From: the human T2T-CHM13v2.0 reference genome, Homo sapiens
DNA: 64,000 nt
Assembly: GCF_009914755.1 (NCBI RefSeq)
Contig: NC_060935.1
Strand: one strand, 5' to 3'
Positions 360-58,500 of the stretch are shown in pieces. Position 1 is the first letter of the stretch. Every line of letters starts with the position of its first letter. The notes under the pieces are model-generated. The model was not told where the DNA came from and made no database searches. It saw nothing but the letters and a program-made list of their open reading frames with translations. Both the position numbers and the translations under genes were made by a program.

Positions 360-490
360 ATATAATGTATATATAATGTAATAATGTAATGTGTGTATAA
401 TGTATATAGAAGAATTTATATGTATTCATGGAACATATATGTATTATATGTATATATATATATATATATATAATGTATATGTAATGTATA
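360..490. repeat. AT-rich low-complexity / (TA)n microsatellite
   Basis: tataatgta-like units and a pure (TA)n run at about 450-472. Confidence 0.85.
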
Positions 491-48437: not shown

Positions 48438-50227
48438 CTAGCAGGGAAGGACTCTACTCCCAAATTTCCAGCCCAAACACCAGTGTTAAAGTTTTTGTTT
48501 GTTTGTTTGTTTGTTTTTGTGCAGCAAGCAGCAGAAGTGTTAAAGTTTAAGTGAAAGTTTTAAAAAGGGGTATGTGTGGTTGTAAAGAAGGCTTCTTGGA
48601 GGAAGATGCATCAAGACAGGACAGATGGACAGGGTGTGAAAAAGGGGGAGCTTGGGGAAGGGCTTGAGCTCAAGAGCACAGTGTGGGCAGGGACCCAGAG
48701 GTGGAAAAGCACGTTCAGGGGCAGGGCAAGTGACCTGATGGGCCTAGGGAGCTGGACCCACATTAGAGCATGGCGGTGGGAGAGGAGTGGAGGCGGCTGG
48801 AGAGAGTGGCAGGAGCAGGATGATGTGAGGCCTTGAATGCCAAGTTAAGGAGCTGGGGCCTCATCCTAAGAACTATGGGGAGCCACGAGAAACAATGGTT
48901 GGGTTCTGTGTTCTGAAGCTCATTCTGGGAATCTGGAGACAGGGGACCAGTGAAGAGGATAGTACAGCTGTCTATGCAAGGTGGCATGGCCCAAGGCAGA
49001 AGAGAGAAGGAGAGAACTGTTTCCTGGTTGTTGGGCATAGAGGTATCAGTGTGAATGTTTTTGTATGTGTCCATGAGCACAAGTAATCTTTCTCAGAGAG
49101 TCAGCCTAAAAAAAAAAAAAAACCCAACCCTATTCAGTTTCATGACCCAGCATACCCAGCAGCCTGGGGGAGGCCAAAGTTACCAAAGAAAGAGGCTGAG
49201 AGACATTCAGTTAAAGCCTGACTTTATAGTTCTTCCTCATCAACACCATCCTGCAAATTCACATTCATCTACAGGCTTTCAGGGTGTTTTAATCCCAGTT
49301 ATCTCACCCAAAATATTTGCTTTTCCGCCTTTCTTTGTGTTTCCTGTATGCCTCATGTCAGCATCCTTGTTCAGGTCACTTACTTAAAAAAAAAAAAAAA
49401 TCCATAAGGCCGGGCTGAGGTGGAGCCTGGAGTGACCAGGAAACCACTCTAGAATGAACTCCTACCTGAGGCAGCTCCTCCTCCCTAGCAGAGCCCACAC
49501 TGGCCTGCTGATCACCTCCCTGCTCAGGACTCTGCTGATACCATAGACCTAGTCCTAGGCCAGTTTGGGAATCTAGAGAGGCCATTGAAAAGAAAACTGA
49601 TATATGGATACCACCCCTCCTCGGTGACTCAATCGTAGCTCCTGACAACTCAGGGTTTTGTTTTTTTGTTTGTTTGTTTTTTCTCTTGAGGGTTACAGAG
49701 CATCATTTATAGAATGCAGTTTATACAACTGACCTCAGAATATGGCCAGGATTTTGCAGCTATTATAGAGCATGGTCTCTGGAGCCAGACCATCTCAGCT
49801 TAAATCCTGGCTCTGCCACTTCCTAAGCTGTGTGACCTTGGGCAATTTTTTTTAACCTCTTTGTGTCTCAATTTCTCCATCTGAAAAATGGACTCATATA
49901 GTATCTACTCCAAAGGGTTGTTGTGAGGCTTAACTAAATCCACCCATGTAAGGAACCTAGAATAGTAACTGGCAGACAGTAAATACTCACTGAAGTTTAA
50001 CACCTGTTATATTGCCTGTTATAGTTCATGAAAACTGTTGCTTCTCCTTTTGGAAAAATCAGGATGGCACTAGCCCACCTCCAGTCTCCCAACGCTTCTC
50101 CAGCTGAACAGCATTTCCTAGAGATTACAGATTCTGTAATCTGCAGGTTCTCTGAGATGCAGTTGGAACAATTTAATACAGCAGAGCAGTCCCATGCTCC
50201 ACTGTAGTCTCACTGCAAAACAGTTCA

Positions 50228-50402
50228 GCAGCGGTTCTCAAAATGTGGGCTTCAAACTAGCAGTATCAGCATGTCCTGGGAACTTGTTAGAAATGCACAT
50301 TCTCAGCCTCACTCCAGAACCTACTGAATCAGAAACTCTGGGGGTGGAACCCAGAAAGCTATATTTTAACCAGCCCTCTGCTAATGTTTGAAAACTGCCA
50401 CA
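50228..50402. mobile_element. MER5A-like hAT MITE
   Basis: cagcggttctcaaa...gggaacttgttagaaatgcacattctcag...acctactgaatcagaaactctggggg. Confidence 0.8.
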
Positions 50403-51024
50403 GCATATTATAGCACAGTGGTTTATTTAGGTAGATATGGCGCAGTTCATTGCCCACTCCTCCACAAAGTGTTCCTGATTCCCCCAGAACCCTCTTTTAC
50501 TAACAGCTCTAACTTCCTCCCTGTATTACTGTTGTCCATGCTCAAAAGTGCTCAATCCTCCCTGGATTACAGGTTACCTGAGAGCAGTGTTGGGTCTTAC
50601 ACATCTCTGCACTGGGCAGCCCAGGGGCTGCCACAGGGACCTTTGCTTAGGAAAGACATGCTGAGTCAAGCGTGCAACATTTCCAGTTTCCTCTGACTAA
50701 GGCTACTATTACTGAGCCTCTGCTCCTTCCAGGACCCTTGCTCATACTGCATTTTCCTTTGTGAATTGTGGTCATCTCCTATGCTAAGATGCCTGGTTCT
50801 TTGTCATTTCTAGTATCCTCCAGTTCCACTGCCTTCTCAGGCATTTTACTCTTCTCCCTCCCTTTATGTTTGTTCAAAGCCCTTTGGAGAAGGTGTCAGA
50901 GCTCCAGGCAAACCTGTCACCCTAATCCTTATTTTCAATCATAATACTTCTACTGGTAACAATTTGTCAAGTACTATATGCCAGGCCCTGTCCTGGGCAT
51001 TTTACATTCATTCATTCATTCACT

Positions 51025-51313
51025 TAGAGACAGGGTGTCTCTCTGCTGCCCAGGCTGCAGCGCAGTGACACGATCATAGCTCACTGCGGCCTCTAACTCC
51101 TGGACTCAAGCAATCCTCCCCTCCCCCTACCTTGGCCTCCTACGTAGCTGGGACTACAGACACATGCCACCATGCCTAGGTAATTTTTTTTTTTTGGGTA
51201 GAGATGGGGTCTGTCTGTGTTGCCCAGGCTGGTCTTCAACTCCTGGGCTCAAATGATCCTCATGCCTCAGCATCCCAAAGTACTGAGATTACAGGCATGA
51301 GCCATTGTGCCCA
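51025..51313 (-). mobile_element. Alu (AluJ-like)
   Basis: gatcatagctcactgc...tcctgggctcaaatgatcctc. Confidence 0.92.
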
Positions 51314-51845
51314 TATGGCACTTTACATTTATTATTTTAGTCTTTACAACAACCCTAGGAGGAAGATACCTATTCCCATTTGGATGGAGCACAGGGAAAC
51401 TGAGGCTCAAACACAGTAAGCAACATTAACATGTGGCAAGGTGGGGGCTTATTCAGTCTGGGGCCAAGTCAGGGTCTGGGTGGATGGACCAGGAGAAGGG
51501 CCTTGTCTAGGCATATGTATTCATATAAAAATGATCCACCAACAAACCTGTCCAGTGCCCTTGCTCAGGAAGATGGGTCTGACCAGGTGCCAGCCCACCA
51601 GGGTGCCTTTCCACAGTGTGCAGGGGGCATCCACCTGAATGCCCGTCTTCAGTGCATCCCCTGGCCCTGCACTTGCTATTCTGTGCAGCAGGAGTTTCAA
51701 ACTGTGTTCCACAGAGCCCTGGAGATAGGGTGTGTGGGCTGGGCAAGTGAGAGACAAACCCTGAGGAACTGTGGGACCACCCCAGCAGCCTGTCATCCCT
51801 GTCACTTCTTGGGCTCTCAAGGTTGTATTTGAAGAAATGATTTCA

Positions 51846-52212
<367 letters not shown>

Positions 52213-52837
52213 TTAGGTGTCTGTTTCTTCCCCCAGAATGCCCCTAAGGAGCAAGAACTGTACCCACAGCACCCAGCACAAGGATGGGGGGTCTCAGGAA
52301 AGGTCGGCCAGATAGAAGGGCAGATGAGAAATGAATGTACTGGGAGCTCTCTGTGTAATATCCCCTCCCCCACCCTCACCCCACCCCCCAATTCCTGCAG
52401 GGAAGAGGCCTTGAGAGAGTTGAGTAAGAAATAAGCAGGCAGAATGATGCAAGGGGAGCTGTCTGTACACATTGCAACAGAACTTTCTAAAACAAGCCTG
52501 GGGCTGCTCCCAAGGGTCTCAGTCCTGCCCTATTCCTCTACTGTCATCCAGACCTGTCACACAAGATAGGGCCAAAGGCCATTACCAAGCTCTGCTAAGG
52601 CCTGACCTTAGAGCTGGGAGGTCTGTGCTCTTGGGTTCTGGTTTGAAACCCGGAGCCATCTTCAATCACCCCCTTCCTTCCTTTCAGCCCTACATCCATG
52701 CCATCAAATCCTAGAGACTCTAAAGCTTCAGCATCTCTCAAAATCACCCTCGCTTCTCTTTTGCCTTGCCACCCCTTCAGTTCAGGCTCTGTCGTCATTA
52801 TCTCTCTCCTTCCTCTCATCTGCCTCCCTCCCTTCCA

Positions 52838-53154
52838 TCCAATATCACCCAGGTCCCTCCTGTAGGCCAGGCCCAGTGTTGGGCCCTGGGACACAGAGAG
52901 GACTCTGATTCTACTTGGCCCTCAAGGAGCCTCTCCAGGAAGAATCAGCTGTATAAACACTAAGAGTTTCAGGTGCTCTGAAAGAGGGAAGCTGGAAGTC
53001 TGATGCTAGCACAGAGGTGCTGAAACTCTTAGTGTTTATACAGCTGATTCTTCCTGGAGAGGCTCCTTGAGGGCCAAGTAGAATCAGAGTCCTCTCTGTG
53101 TCCCAGGGCCCAACACTGGGCCTGGCCTACAGGAGGGACCTGGGTGATATTGGA
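52838..53154. repeat. Perfect 135-bp inverted repeat with 47-nt spacer
   Basis: 52838-52972 is the exact reverse complement of 53020-53154, checked base by base. Confidence 0.97.
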
Positions 53155-54507
53155 GACAACCCAGGTCCCTGTGGGTTGTCTGTGCCCCTTCAGCAAAGGC
53201 CACAGCTTCCATGTGGCAGCCCTCTCCGCTCAGCCCCCATTGCACCTGCAGTGTCCTTCTCTTAGTCCTTCAGGCCAGATCCCCTGTGAGGTGACTAGTC
53301 CTGGGCTACTGCACCATCCCTTGAGTTTTCTCTATAGCCTGCTTACATCTTTGCAAACAGTCTTTGTATTAAACTGTCCTCAAATTACCCAGTTTGGGTG
53401 GGCTGTTTCCCATAGGGACACTGACTAATATAAGGTAGAGGTAGTTAGGAAGGGTGCCATGGAGATGACAGTTAAAGATGTTCTTGCCTGGACAATGATC
53501 TTTCTAAAGCATAAAACTCCTGCTAAAAACCTCTATGGCTCCCCATTGCCCTGAGAATAAAGTCCAGACTCTGTAGCCTGCCACCCAAGACTATATACCA
53601 TCAGGCCCCTGACCACAAAGCAGCAGCAGCATGTGGGGAAGCCACCAGGAAGAGGGAGAGTAGGGGGCTTGGACGTGGGAGGCAAAGACTTCCAAGAGGA
53701 GTGCAGCCATGCCACACAGCTGCTCTGGCTGGCAAATTCCTGTGAGTAAGGAGGCGGGTGAGTTTCCAGGCTAGAGGGCCATGCCAGGCTGCCTCTGCTT
53801 GCCAGAACCCTGCCCGCCCACTCTCCAAGTGAGTTGAGCACTGAAAGGAGTTTAACCCCAATGGGCCCTAGCCTTGTGGCATGAGAACTGGTTACATCCC
53901 AACCCCATCTGGTAAGCTATTGGATTCCCTGAGCTTTCATTTTGCCAACTGCAAAATGGGACTAACCTCCCAGGGCTGTGGAGGCGATGGATGGGAATTT
54001 GCTTTCGTCCAGTAGTTCTGCTGTTACAGGTGCTCCCTCTCCCAGCCTTGGGAGGCAGGAAAAGCGTACAGGTTTGAGGCTCTGGAAGACTTGGTGTGAA
54101 TCTCAGCTTTACTACTTACTCCTTGTGTGATCCAGGACAAGTCACTTTACTTCCCTGCACCCCATGTGCAAAGCGGTGGGGGTGATCACCCCTTGTGTGG
54201 TGGCTGTGAGGACTGGGCAAGCTCACACAAGCCAGGGCCTAGCACAGAGCAGGGAGCTTGATACACGTTTGTTTCTGTCTTTCTACCTGTGCCTCTCTTA
54301 GGGCAAGTGTCCTCTCTGCCTTATAGGCTGGCCACTTACCCTCCTCATGTGTGCAATGGAGGAGCTAAGACTGCTATCACTGAAGCATATCTCAGAGGTG
54401 CATGCGTCAAACCTCTCACAAGCTACAAAGCTGCACGTGTAATCCCCAATGGCTGTACAACACTGGTGATTGAAGTGGGTGGAGGATGAGCCATCCTTGT
54501 GGATGCC

Positions 54508-55579
<1,072 letters not shown>

Positions 55580-58500
55580 CTGGCAGGACCCACGAGGCCG
55601 TTCAGATCTGGGCCCTGTCAACCTCTCCAGCCTCATTTCCTACCCCTCTTCTGCCTGTATCTTTCTTTCAGCCACACCAGGGTGCTCACAGGGTTCCTAC
55701 CTCCAGGCCTTTGTCCATGCTGTACCCTCTGCCTGACACCTTTCCCCTTTCCCCCTGCCTCACAGAATCAGACTTCTCATCTTAGGTCTGCAGCAATATC
55801 ACTTCTTCTTGACCTTCCCAATTTACCATTCCCTCTACTTCCTCTATGACTCTACTATACTTTTTCAGGGGGCAATCCACCTTGGACTAAGCGTCTATGC
55901 CGAGCTAGGCCCACACTGGGACATAGAGTGATGAGGTTCCTGCCCTTGGGAAACGCCTGGCTCCGTGGAGAGGCAGGCAGACAGTGACAGCACAGGGGGA
56001 AAGGCCAAACTTGGCATAGCCTTCCATGTTACCCTGTGCCACAGGCTGGCTGTCTTGGGATCATTGGCTTTAGGACACCATCTCTCGATTGGGTCTCCTC
56101 AAAGCCAAGGACTAAGTCCGATTACTCTCTGTGTCCTAACCAAGGCCGGGCCCAGAGAAGGTGCATAGCAAAAATGTGCTGAAGTAGATGAACTTGGGAT
56201 CTGAATGTTTCAAATAGGCCTTGGTAACCCCAAATCTTGCCATTTAAGACAATGATCTCTTACATTACAGCACAGTGATAACACTCTTTTACATGCTGTG
56301 ATTTCACTTCATCCTCAAATACTCAAGTGAAGTCAGCAAAACAGAAACTGTCACCTCCATTTCATAATGCAGAAAAGGAAACCTAGACAAGATAGCGATA
56401 CTGACTTGCCCAGGGTGAGTGGGTGGGCCATGAGTTCCAGCCCAGGCCTCCTCCACAGGAGACCCTTCTGGAGCAGGCACGAGCCACAGACTGACCTGGG
56501 ATCTTCCAGGCCAGCAGGAGTCTTGCCTCCAAGAGCACCCTCTCTGAGGAGAGGATGCCAGGATTTACTGGCACCTTCAGTATCCTCCTGGCTTCACTCC
56601 TCTTTGCCCAAAAACAAACCACACCTGTTTCTACCTCCCAGCCTTTGCACTTACCAGTCCCCATGTCTCCCCCCATCCCCCACATGTGGCATGCCACTAG
56701 CCTACCCTCAGTTTCCTAAAAGGCACTAAGATCTTTCCAGCCTCATGGCCTCACCACATGCTGGGAGCTCTGCCTGGAATGCTTTTCTTTCTACTCTTGG
56801 CCAATTCGGGCCTTGGGGCCCAGTAACACGGTTGAGAGATTTACTCCTGTGGCCTTGAGAGGGCTGAACAAATGGAAGCATCTCTAGGTTGCACCAGAGG
56901 CATCTATTACCTGCTGCCCTGTGCCTGTAACTTCTGTCATTCTCCTCTCCCCCTGTGAGAACATGATAAAGACCACAAAGGCAGGGAATTCCTCTCCTCT
57001 TATGCTGTGACCCCACAGCTATCTCGCTCCAGCTATGCCTAAGAAATCTGTCTTATCACTGACATGCTTGTTGTCCCCACTCGTTCCCTGAGCCTCCATC
57101 CAACAAGTCGCTCCACCACATGCTGGTGGATCTCGCTTCCTATGCTCTTCCCTAGATCAGGCCTTCCCTCCATTCCCTCTACCACTGCCGTGCCTTGAGG
57201 CTCATCCTCTCTCACATGGATCCCCCGCCCCTACAGCCTCCCCACTGCCCTCCTGACCTACAGCCTCTCCTGTCCATTTCCCATACCATGGCTAAGGACA
57301 CTTAAAACCCACCTGACCAGCCATTTCCCTACTAAAGCTCTCCCAAGACCCGGCTCCCCCCCAATATCTCAAGAGTGGCACTCCCAAACCTCTCTCAGTT
57401 CAAGCACCCGCGCCTCTCACTTCAGCCTCATTTTCCACAGTTGCCTGGGCTCCAGCCACTCCAGGGCCCCCAGCCCTGCCCCAAACATGCTGGCTTTTCT
57501 AACACTTTATGCCTATCTTTCTGCTTTGCCCTCACACCTTCCATCTGCAAAATTCCTATTCATTAATGGGCAAACCATTCTGGAATGCTTTCTATGTGCC
57601 AGACACTACCTAGGCTCTTTTTATACCTTATCTCATTTACTTCTCAAAGTACCTCACAAAAATAATAATTATTATTCCCATTTTACAGATATGGAAACTG
57701 AGGCTCAAGAGAGGCAGGGCAAGAACTGGACTCCTAGTCTATCTGATTCCAAACCTGCTGTGCACCAACCTCTCTGGGAAGTGCACCAGCGCCCCCACTC
57801 CCCCAGCCCAGGGCAGAGTCTTCTCTACTCTGTGGTTCCATAGCCCCCTGGTTTCTCGCTTGTCCCGGCCGTTGTCACCAGTGACTGTGTGCGGCTGTCT
57901 CTGCTGCCCCCCAGCGTGAGCATCCCAAGGGCAGAACCTGGGCTGATCTGGCTGGGTCCCCAGCACCCAGCAGGGTATAGGTGCTCTGTGAGGTTTCTTA
58001 ATAAAGAGATGGAAAGCCAGAAGCAGTTTGGGTGGTTGAGATACCCAGCCCTAACCTAACTAATCCTGATACCAGTGACCAAAAGCGGGACCTTCGCATC
58101 TTTGCTGCCAAAAGACAGCCCCTCCTAAAGAGTAAAGGCCCGACCCCCTGCACGCCCTCTGCCTGCACCGCACGTGCTTGGTTTTCCCCGCCCGGGTACT
58201 GGCCGCCGGGCCGTACCAATCTCCGCGGGGGAGCGCCCGGGGTCGGACTGAGGGAGCGAGGGGAATAACCGGGCGCGCCCCTTGGAAGCAGGGCTCAGAG
58301 CTGCTCTCCTCTCACGCATTCCCCGGATCCGCGCGGAGCAGGCTGCTGGCCAGCCCCGGGCCCGCGCCAAGCAGAGCCTCAGGTGCGGTTCCCCCACAAG
58401 CAAGTGGCGCGGGCGGCGGCTTAGAACGGCCCGCCCCGCCCGCCGCGTCGGCGCCTGCCCCGTTGTGAGGTGATAAAGTGTTGCGCTCCGGGACGCCAGC

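What the first reader, a model, noticed from the sequence alone, without database searches (positions are those of the whole stretch)
52838..53154. Perfect 135-bp inverted repeat (long hairpin) upstream of DGAT2
Seen: 52838-52972 and 53020-53154 are exact reverse complements, with no mismatch or indel, around a 47-nt spacer. After a 3x3 internal loop the stem pairs 5 more bp (ctctg 52976-52980 with cagag 53012-53016), leaving a 31-nt loop. It is not an Alu pair and I do not recognise it as a MITE. Inference: arm 1 looks like a decayed antisense L2 3' end, and independent L2 copies are far more diverged than this. So 100% identity implies a very recent fold-back duplication or continuing arm-to-arm homogenisation. 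If transcribed from either strand it gives about 140 bp of essentially perfect dsRNA, a candidate substrate for ADAR, Drosha/Dicer or PKR. Established precedent: opposed L2 ends gave rise to miR-28 and miR-151. It could also be a fragile or invertible DNA hairpin.
Basis: partly seen in the sequence, partly recalled or inferred. Interest (0 to 1): 0.85.

Follow-up and report, generated by a model that had tools for sequence, protein, structure and literature searches.

The report
Long perfect fold-back duplication upstream of DGAT2
A 135-base stretch of unique human DNA sits next to an exact inverted copy of itself inside an intron of a non-coding RNA gene upstream of DGAT2, most likely a fairly young replication copying error with no shown function.

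Summary
Bases 52838-52972 and 53020-53154 are exact reverse complements. Pairing extends to 143 nt across one 3-nt GTG/GTG bubble, leaving a 31-nt loop. The predicted hairpin is extreme: RNA about -313 to -315 kcal/mol, z -26 to -31.

Arms, spacer and left flank are single copy in T2T-CHM13. That excludes an Alu pair or a multicopy MITE. I found no support for the L2 claim. No Rfam microRNA family matches.

The symmetry stops abruptly at both outer ends. The left end abuts an 89% pyrimidine tract. The right end carries the only two perfect short inverted repeats (12 and 10 bp) found in the 64-kb window. It lies 8 nt from the truncated start of an old dispersed repeat.

Best reading: a fold-back, template-switch inverted duplication. 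It is unusually long for that class but within its reported range. Perfect identity only bounds its age to under about 18-28 Myr.

It lies in a GT-AG intron of DGAT2-DT, so it could form nuclear dsRNA. No function is shown. Presence in other humans or apes could not be tested.

The parts
52792..52840 (+). Polypyrimidine tract (40 of 45 bases C/T in 52792-52836) that runs up to and 3 nt into the outer end of arm 1. Candidate replication-stalling sequence.
   Evidence: pyrimidine fraction 0.889. Only 7 tracts this skewed occur in the 64-kb window (0.18% of 45-nt windows).
52838..52972 (.). Arm 1 of the perfect inverted repeat (135 nt, GC 0.53, no CpG).
   Evidence: Single copy apart from arm 2 in CHM13.
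52847..52858 (+). 12-mer ACCCAGGTCCCT inside arm 1, identical to 53159-53170 just beyond arm 2.
   Evidence: 12-nt match; the 11-nt core has 3 matches against 0.13 expected. With a 3-nt gap the similarity runs on for 7 more bases, 6 of them matching.
52973..53019 (.). 47-nt spacer: GTG bubble (52973-75), inner 5-bp stem CTCTG (52976-80), 31-nt loop (52981-53011), inner stem CAGAG (53012-16), GTG bubble (53017-19).
53020..53154 (.). Arm 2, the exact reverse complement of arm 1.
53134..53170 (.). Nested perfect 12-bp inverted repeat AGGGACCTGGGT / ACCCAGGTCCCT (13-nt loop). It joins the outer end of arm 2 to the first bases of the right flank.
   Evidence: It is one of only two perfect inverted repeats with arms of 10 bp or more and spacers of 3-30 nt in the whole window.
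53154..53181 (.). Second nested perfect inverted repeat, 10 bp: AGACAACCCA / TGGGTTGTCT (8-nt loop). It starts on the last base of arm 2.
   Evidence: and the DNA fold.
53162..53435 (+). 3' part (about 270 nt) of an old dispersed repeat of about 475 nt. This copy lacks the family's first ~200 positions, and the break lies 8 nt from the end of arm 2.
   Evidence: Profile of 16 other copies: E 9.2e-51, profile positions 508-802. Iterated profile: E 7.3e-42. Copies start at profile 304-312 in 5 hits and end at 776-787 in 8 hits, of 21.
51958..53966 (-). Intron 2 of DGAT2-DT (NR_046090.1), 2,009 nt, containing the hairpin. The hairpin lies 812 nt from the donor and 880 nt from the acceptor.
   Evidence: Hub annotation. 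Donor GGAG|GTTAGT at 53967/53966 and acceptor TTTTTAG|AG at 51958/51957 on the - strand.

Best explanation
The structure is the product of a local replication or repair error of the template-switch (fold-back) type. A growing DNA strand left its template, copied about 135-143 nt of the neighbouring sequence in reverse-complement orientation, and then returned. In the four-point model this is the '3-2-1-4' type or its mirror '1-4-3-2'. The result is a unique-sequence inverted duplication with a 31-47-nt spacer.

The event probably began at a stalled fork. One outer junction abuts a polypyrimidine tract. The other carries two nested short perfect hairpins, which look like traces of additional short switches. 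The 3-nt GTG/GTG bubble is best read as a later or concomitant in-place 3-nt inversion (AG[CAC]CT to AG[GTG]CT).

I weakly favour (about 60:40) arm 2 as the original and arm 1 as the copy. The 12-mer that arm 2 pairs with, 13 nt away in the right flank, belongs to the old dispersed repeat.

The duplication is young relative to the surrounding ancient repeats, under about 20-30 Myr, and possibly much younger or polymorphic. It is most likely selectively neutral.

Consequences are inferred, not shown. As DNA it can extrude a hairpin or cruciform and may be deletion-prone. As part of the DGAT2-DT primary transcript it would form about 140 bp of nuclear intronic dsRNA, a plausible ADAR substrate that is degraded with the intron.
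For: Shown:
- Exact 135-nt arms, 143 nt with one 3-nt cluster of mismatches.
- Symmetry ends abruptly: 7 of 30 matches in the outer flanks.
- Arms, spacer and left flank are single copy in CHM13, so the copy was templated locally.
- No poly(A), no target-site duplication and no multicopy family.
- The only two perfect inverted repeats of 10 bp or more with short spacers in 64 kb both sit on the right junction. About 1.3 are expected in the whole window by my own arithmetic.
- A 12-mer is shared between the arm and the right flank.
- The old dispersed repeat is broken 8 nt from the junction.
- An 89% pyrimidine tract lies at the left junction.

From the literature (passages read):
- Template switching creates perfect inverted repeats in one event, and type 3-2-1-4 makes up 31% of human-chimp events (PMC5453318).
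- Event lengths average 11.6 bp, but the per-individual maximum is 97-180 bp in unmasked sequence and 318 bp overall. Chained events occur (bioRxiv 10.1101/2021.11.26.470150).
- Such events create RNA hairpins, are enriched in introns, and can hit a locus twice (PMC10710096).
Against: No ancestral or alternative allele could be examined, so the event, its polarity and its age are inferred from one haplotype.

A simple snap-back primed on the inner 5-bp stem would give CAC, not the observed GTG. A second step is therefore needed.

The arm length lies in the extreme tail of reported template-switch events.

The support for arm 2 as the older arm is thin. Only 2 of the 7 hit rows printed (L022, L010) align over the shared 12-mer. 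By my own count after shifting that output's columns by 8, they match 6 of 8 and 5 of 8 bases. The 5' half of the dispersed repeat shows no detectable similarity to arm 2 plus spacer in either orientation (+ 156, - 165; mononucleotide-shuffle null 136 +/- 7).

The polypyrimidine and short-hairpin associations were noticed post hoc.
Confidence: 0.7

Rival explanations
1. An older inverted repeat, tens of Myr or more, whose arms are kept identical by arm-to-arm gene conversion or by repeated template switching.
For: Perfect identity with one clustered 3-nt difference is what a recent homogenisation would leave. Template switching has been reported to maintain hairpin stems (PMC8794818, search listing and start of the abstract only). 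The nested short repeats suggest more than one event at this site.
Against: The arms are only 135 nt, which is short for efficient mammalian gene conversion (recalled knowledge). Nothing requires it: zero differences is unremarkable up to about 10-20 Myr. Long perfect inverted repeats are described as depleted and unstable in the human genome (PMC12019632 introduction).
Confidence: 0.1
2. A functional hairpin-RNA locus. The intronic 143-bp stem would be processed into small RNAs (microRNA-like or endo-siRNA), or act as an ADAR- or PKR-binding dsRNA that affects DGAT2-DT or DGAT2.
For: It lies in a canonical GT-AG intron of an annotated lncRNA, 5.3 kb upstream of the DGAT2 start (hub table). 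The predicted RNA stability is extreme on both strands. Hairpins made by template switching have become microRNA genes, preferentially in introns (PMC10710096).
Against: No Rfam microRNA family matches the hairpin at E <= 10. The locus is not among the entries of Dataset S1 of PMC10710096 (no occurrence of 'DGAT2' or 'chr11'; its coordinates carry no 'chr' prefix, so that term was uninformative). The stem is about four times longer than a Drosha substrate, and human somatic Dicer handles long dsRNA poorly (recalled). Searches on DGAT2-DT found no paper on it: one search found 0; one search found 2, each with one occurrence of LOC100506127, a name I recalled and did not verify. No expression, small-RNA or editing data were available here.
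Confidence: 0.07
3. An assembly artefact, or a mutation private to the CHM13 cell line.
For: Only one assembly could be examined. Palindromes are hard to sequence and clone (PMC4057610 background).
Against: Both arms are embedded in continuous unique flanks, with an asymmetric spacer and complex junctions. Chimeric fold-back reads do not give this pattern in a high-coverage consensus (inference). A scan for independent copies in other collections found nothing either way.
Confidence: 0.05
4. A palindromic MITE or foldback transposon, or two opposed old repeat copies.
For: General shape only. The palindrome includes TA dinucleotides near both ends.
Against: The arm has only its own two copies in 3.1 Gb. 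No family was found with nhmmer in 150 kb. There is no target-site duplication. Independent copies of families that old could not be 100% identical (inference; the Alu pairs in the window are 71-89%).
Confidence: 0.02

Closest known systems
Template-switch mutations (four-point model, type 3-2-1-4 / 1-4-3-2; Loytynoja and Goldman 2017, PMC5453318) and the hairpins and de novo microRNA loci they create (PMC10710096)
   Same: An adjacent reverse-complement copy of local unique sequence that is perfect at birth. It has a short spacer, sits in an intron, and shows traces of chained switches at the junction.
   Different: The arm is 135-143 nt against a mean event length of 11.6 bp (per-individual maximum 97-180 bp in unmasked sequence). 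No ancestral allele was seen. No small RNA or microRNA annotation is known.
Palindromic AT-rich repeats (PATRR11, PATRR22, PATRR17) (review PMC7999016)
   Same: A constitutional near-perfect palindrome of several hundred bp, single locus, able to form hairpins or cruciforms. PATRR17 is also intronic.
   Different: PATRRs are over 90% AT and are described without a spacer. This one is 53% GC with a 31-47-nt spacer. No translocation or breakage is known here.
Inverted Alu pairs (dsRNA substrates of ADAR; replication-stalling inverted repeats)
   Same: Intronic inverted repeats that give long dsRNA. Closely spaced pairs stall forks: a 12-bp spacer does so in primate cells and a 52-bp spacer does not (PMC7999016).
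   Different: Alu pairs come from independent insertions. In this window they are 71-89% complementary with 584-1820 nt between arms. Here there is one duplication event, 100% identity, unique sequence and a spacer of intermediate length.
L2-derived microRNAs miR-28 / miR-151, and MITE-derived microRNAs such as mir-548 (recalled)
   Same: A hairpin formed from repeat-derived inverted sequence.
   Different: No Rfam hit of these or any other microRNA family falls in the hairpin. The arms belong to no detectable family. The stem is far longer than a pri-microRNA.

Membership tests
Template-switch (fold-back) inverted duplication | The reverse-complement copy lies next to its template, with a short spacer | tested here: met
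   Arms 52838-52972 / 53020-53154, spacer 47 nt (31 nt after the inner stem).
Template-switch (fold-back) inverted duplication | The copy is templated locally, not from a dispersed family | tested here: met
   The arm has only its two own matches in CHM13. The flanks are single copy apart from the old repeat at 53162-53435.
Template-switch (fold-back) inverted duplication | An ancestral or alternative allele lacks the inverted copy and differs only as the four switch points predict | not testable with these tools
   No other human haplotype or ape genome was reachable. Collection scans for stray copies found 0.
Template-switch (fold-back) inverted duplication | No transposition hallmarks (target-site duplication, poly(A), terminal repeats of a family) | tested here: met
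   The flanks CCCTTCCA| and |GACAACCC share no duplication and there is no A-tail.
MITE / foldback transposon | Multiple dispersed copies in the genome | tested here: not met
   (E <= 10) and 17: no other copy.
MITE / foldback transposon | Target-site duplication flanking the terminal inverted repeats | tested here: not met
   the bases outside the arms differ (A at 52837 against G at 53155; 7 of 30 symmetric matches). No direct repeat lies at the ends.
microRNA / Drosha-Dicer hairpin gene | Match to a curated microRNA family | tested here: not met
   33 hits at E <= 10 in 50000-56000. None is a microRNA family inside 52838-53154. The only overlap is MIAT_exon5_3 at 14.7 bits against a gathering score of 90.
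microRNA / Drosha-Dicer hairpin gene | Stem of about 35 bp with defined basal and apical junctions; discrete small-RNA reads | tested here: not met
   The stem is 143 bp. The small-RNA reads part is not testable here.
PATRR-type palindrome | AT-rich (over 90% AT) near-perfect palindrome without a spacer | tested here: not met
   GC 0.53 and a 47-nt spacer. The definition comes from PMC7999016.
   No similarity of the arms to any other locus. No L2 consensus or Dfam library is held, so a direct comparison was impossible.

The most novel reading that the evidence does not exclude
The palindrome is a human- or hominid-specific, possibly polymorphic, structure with two effects. It would be a naturally occurring long-hairpin RNA locus: intronic dsRNA of about 140 bp from DGAT2-DT, hyper-edited or diced into endo-siRNAs. 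It would also be a fragile or invertible DNA element 5.3 kb upstream of DGAT2. Carriers and non-carriers would then differ in DGAT2-DT or DGAT2 regulation or in local genome stability.
Probability: 0.06. Interest if true: 0.7.

Novelty: new member of a known kind. Interest (0 to 1): 0.3.

Why it matters
Template switching is now recognised as a source of perfect hairpins and of new microRNA genes, but reported events are mostly around 10 bp. A 135-143-nt, GC-balanced, unique-sequence example with informative junctions is a clean natural specimen from the long tail of the process. Its junctions show a polypyrimidine tract on one side and nested short hairpins plus a broken old repeat on the other.

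Three things would make it useful. If it is polymorphic, it could serve as a natural test of how long perfect inverted repeats with spacers of intermediate length behave in human cells. If it is transcribed, it offers non-Alu dsRNA of defined length next to a lipid-metabolism gene. As it stands it is a curiosity, not a functional element.

Tried and rejected
- Rfam scan of 50000-56000 at E <= 10: no microRNA or other family in the hairpin.
- Own-genome BLAST of the arm, arm plus spacer, and both flanks: no other copies. The only family found is at 53162-53435.
- nhmmer of 52400-53500 against the rest of the window plus 24 loci, and the reverse searches. Weak extensions into arm 2 (starts at 53104-53138 in several loci) had low posterior support. 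The profiles did not confirm them: one search's alignment starts at 53162 and one search's at 53198.
- Test of whether arm 2 plus spacer, or flank A, is the missing 5' half of that repeat (14 copies, local alignment, both orientations). Sums were 156, 165, 166 and 174.5 against a shuffle null of 136 +/- 7. No orientation signal, so the result is uninformative.
- hmmalign gave nothing useful.
- My own recollection of L2 and LTR consensus sequences gave contradictory assignments. I dropped it and use no family name as evidence.
- Snap-back priming on the inner 5-bp stem, or on GTGCT/AGCAC. Neither reproduces the observed GTG bubble, so both are rejected as a complete single-step model.
- Scans of genome contigs and viral contigs for a stray independent copy of the right flank: 0 hits.
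- Literature on DGAT2-DT: one search found 0 papers. One search found 2 papers, each with one occurrence of LOC100506127, a name I recalled and did not verify as an alias; I did not open them.
- Supplementary locus lists of PMC9435742 are PDFs and could not be read. They may list this site if it is polymorphic.
- I did not sample other genome regions to estimate how rare such repeats are. At most 2 Mb could be fetched, which is too little to be informative.

Full report
**1. Observation**

The sequence is as described. Bases 52838-52972 and 53020-53154 are exact reverse complements: 135 nt with no mismatch or indel, around a 47-nt spacer. The repeat finder extends the arms to 52838-52980 / 53012-53154, 143 nt at 98% complementarity with 31 nt between them. 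The three mismatches are contiguous, at 52973-52975, where GTG faces GTG.

Outside the arms the symmetry stops at once, with 7 of 30 matches.

Predicted folding:

| Molecule | Energy (kcal/mol) | Shuffle mean | z | Shuffles folding as well |
|---|---|---|---|---|
| RNA, + strand | -315.1 | -133 | -25.9 | 0 of 100 |
| RNA, - strand | -312.8 | -135 | -30.6 | 0 of 100 |
| Single-stranded DNA | -195.1 | -55.6 | -32.4 | 0 of 100 |

The window holds 18 inverted-repeat pairs of 40 nt or more within 2 kb. Sixteen of the other 17 are 71-89% complementary with 584-1820 nt between their arms. They look like Alu pairs, and one printed pair shows typical Alu sequence. The remaining one is an AT-rich low-complexity palindrome at 423-490.

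**2. What the arms are not**

- **Not a dispersed element.** In the 3.1-Gb T2T-CHM13 assembly the arm matches only itself and its partner. Arm plus spacer likewise matches only the two arms. The 438 nt to the left match only themselves. The 146 nt to the right match themselves plus one 47-nt, 87% hit on another chromosome.
- **Not a detectable repeat family.** nhmmer of 52400-53500 against the rest of the window and 24 fetched loci gave 29 hits, all between 53104 and 53492. None fell in flank A, arm 1, the spacer or the inner part of arm 2; several low-confidence alignments extended into the outer end of arm 2, from 53104.
- **Not a known microRNA family.** A permissive Rfam scan (E <= 10) of 50000-56000 gave 33 hits. 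None is a microRNA family inside the hairpin. The only overlap is a noise-level lncRNA model (14.7 bits, gathering score 90). The Alu/SRP-type hits lie outside.

So this is not an Alu pair, not a multicopy MITE and not a known microRNA family.

It could not be tested directly, because no repeat library is held. My own attempts to place the region on remembered consensus sequences contradicted each other, so I discarded them.

**3. Surroundings**

*Right flank.* Bases 53162-53435 are the 3' part of an old dispersed repeat.
- BLAST found 23 other loci at 71-82% identity over 53291-53419 (query 732-860).
- Those loci are homologous to each other for 200-400 nt further upstream than to the window.
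- A profile made from 16 of them, without the window, hits 53162-53435 at E 9.2e-51, over profile positions 508-802.
- In an iterated profile, 5 of 21 hits start at positions 304-312 and 8 of 21 end at 776-787. The element is therefore about 475 nt, and the window copy lacks its first ~200 positions.
- The break lies 8 nt from the end of arm 2.
- I tested whether arm 2 plus spacer (189 nt, about the right length) or flank A is the missing 5' half. There was no orientation-specific signal: sums 156, 165, 166 and 174.5 against a shuffle null of 136 +/- 7.

*Right junction.* Two nested perfect short inverted repeats sit here:
- 53134-53145 / 53159-53170, 12 bp with a 13-nt loop;
- 53154-53163 / 53172-53181, 10 bp with an 8-nt loop.

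A scan of the whole window for perfect inverted repeats with arms of 10 bp or more and spacers of 3-30 nt found exactly these two and no others. By my own arithmetic, about 1.3 are expected by chance in 64 kb.

Because the arms are mirror images, the 12-mer ACCCAGGTCCCT also occurs in arm 1 at 52847-52858. Its 11-nt core has 3 matches against 0.13 expected. With a 3-nt gap the similarity continues for 7 more bases, 6 of them matching.

The flank copy of the 12-mer lies where homology to the old repeat begins. Only 2 of the 7 hit rows printed (L022 and L010) align that far. By my own count, after shifting that output's columns by 8, they match 6 of 8 and 5 of 8 bases. The profile alignment starts at 53162.

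*Left junction.* Arm 1 abuts a tract that is 89% pyrimidine over 45 nt (52792-52836). Only 7 tracts this skewed occur in the window.

*Gene context.* The hairpin lies in the 2,009-nt intron 2 of the lncRNA DGAT2-DT on the - strand. Its GT donor (53966) and AG acceptor (51958) are canonical. The hairpin sits 812 nt from the donor and 880 nt from the acceptor, and 5.3 kb upstream of the DGAT2 start (hub table).

**4. Mechanism**

The anatomy is what a template-switch or fold-back error produces:
- a perfect inverted copy of adjacent single-copy sequence;
- sharp ends;
- no transposition hallmarks;
- complex micro-repeats at one junction;
- a structure-prone tract at the other.

In the four-point model of Loytynoja and Goldman, event type 3-2-1-4 (mirror 1-4-3-2) creates exactly such a repeat and makes up 31% of human-chimp events. 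Type 1-3-2-4 inverts a short fragment in place and makes up 45% (PMC5453318, passages).

The GTG/GTG bubble equals an in-place inversion of CAC within AG..CT. A single snap-back primed on the inner CTCTG/CAGAG stem would have produced CAC. At least two steps are therefore needed, either chained in one event or separate in time. This is inference.

The 10-bp hairpin can be written as a 7-nt fold-back copy primed on a 3-bp CCA/TGG homology. This is also inference.

Chained events and repeated hits at one locus are documented. Reported events average 11.6 bp. The longest per individual are 97-180 bp in unmasked sequence and 318 bp overall (bioRxiv 10.1101/2021.11.26.470150, passages). This example is therefore in the tail but within range.

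Polarity is unresolved. I weakly favour arm 2 as the template. Its outer 12-mer pairs with repeat-derived flank sequence only 13 nt away, which is a typical short-range product. The alternative needs a direct 12-20-nt duplication across 170 nt or more.

**5. Age**

The arms contain no CpG and are 53% GC. I assume 0.4-0.6e-9 substitutions per bp per year (established human rate, recalled). The probability of no difference across 2 x 135 nt is then:
- 0.85-0.90 at 1 Myr;
- 0.35-0.50 at 6.5 Myr;
- 0.09-0.20 at 15 Myr.

The 95% upper bound is 18-28 Myr. The duplication is young compared with the surrounding ancient repeat, but 'very recent' does not follow. It could be private to CHM13, polymorphic, human-specific or shared by great apes. 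None of this could be tested.

**6. Consequences (inferred)**

*DNA.* Long perfect inverted repeats are described as depleted and unstable in the human genome (PMC12019632 introduction). Inverted Alus with a 12-bp spacer stall forks in primate cells, whereas a 52-bp spacer does not (review PMC7999016). The 31-47-nt spacer here is intermediate.

*RNA.* The DGAT2-DT primary transcript would carry a 143-bp stem. From recalled knowledge, this is ample for ADAR and PKR binding and too long for Drosha. As an intronic segment it should stay nuclear and be degraded.

No function is shown. The locus is not in Dataset S1 of the template-switch microRNA study by the terms I searched (0 occurrences of 'DGAT2' and 'chr11'; the file writes coordinates without 'chr'). 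My searches found no paper on DGAT2-DT: one search found 0, and one search found 2 papers that each mention LOC100506127 once, a recalled name I did not verify.

**7. Verdict**

The structure is a real, statistically overwhelming perfect inverted duplication. It is best explained as a long template-switch (fold-back) mutation at a structure-prone site inside a lncRNA intron. It is a new member of a known kind.

The fold-back inference is supported by the anatomy. The L2 origin is unsupported, the recency is overstated, and the RNA roles are untested. Interest is modest (0.3). It would rise if the site proves polymorphic or lineage-specific and is expressed as dsRNA.

Supplementary locus lists of PMC9435742, which might include this site if it is polymorphic, are PDFs and could not be read.

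Noticed in passing
window 53162-53435; loci L005-L028: A truncated copy (3' ~270 nt) of a dispersed repeat of about 475 nt with discrete ends (profile positions ~305 to ~780). At least 23 other copies exist in CHM13 at 71-82% identity. Its 3' end resembles a retroviral-type LTR terminus from recollection only; no library was available to name it.
   Followed up: partly
window 51945-51985 (- strand) and 51846-52158: The acceptor of DGAT2-DT exon 3 (TTTTTAG|AGACGAGG at 51958/51957) lies inside an Alu in antisense orientation. SRP/Alu-type Rfam hits fall at 51846-51934 and 51981-52128. The exon therefore looks like an Alu exonisation.
   Followed up: partly
window 51979-52030 (+), 55300-55351 (-), 51047-51106 (+), 55225-55283 (+): Sub-threshold Rfam hits to mir-1268 (63.5 and 53.3 bits; gathering 83) and mir-3135 (46.3 and 39 bits; gathering 80). 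They fall within or next to Alu/SRP-like matches and are probably Alu-derived look-alikes, not genes.
   Followed up: no
window 52792-52840: A polypyrimidine tract (89% C/T over 45 nt) containing the perfect mirror CTCTCCT|TCCTCTC. It is a possible weak triplex-forming motif directly at the palindrome's left edge.
   Followed up: partly
loci L015, L016, L017 (C22, C14, C3) and L021, L022, L023, L025 (C20, C19 twice, C2): Two sets of loci carrying the dispersed repeat are near-identical to each other over about 2 kb (E = 0 in all-against-all nhmmer). They are recent segmental duplications rather than independent insertions. L021-L023 and L025 also carry a second copy of the repeat about 1.1-1.3 kb away in inverted orientation.
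   Followed up: no
locus L026 1501-1546 (G000:C17:48485747-48485792): A 47-nt, 87% identical match to window 53161-53207, the first bases of the right flank including most of the shared 12-mer region. nhmmer extends it to about 53265. It is probably another copy of the same dispersed repeat.
   Followed up: no
window 423-490: An AT-rich low-complexity palindromic microsatellite (overlapping arms, 73% complementary).
   Followed up: no
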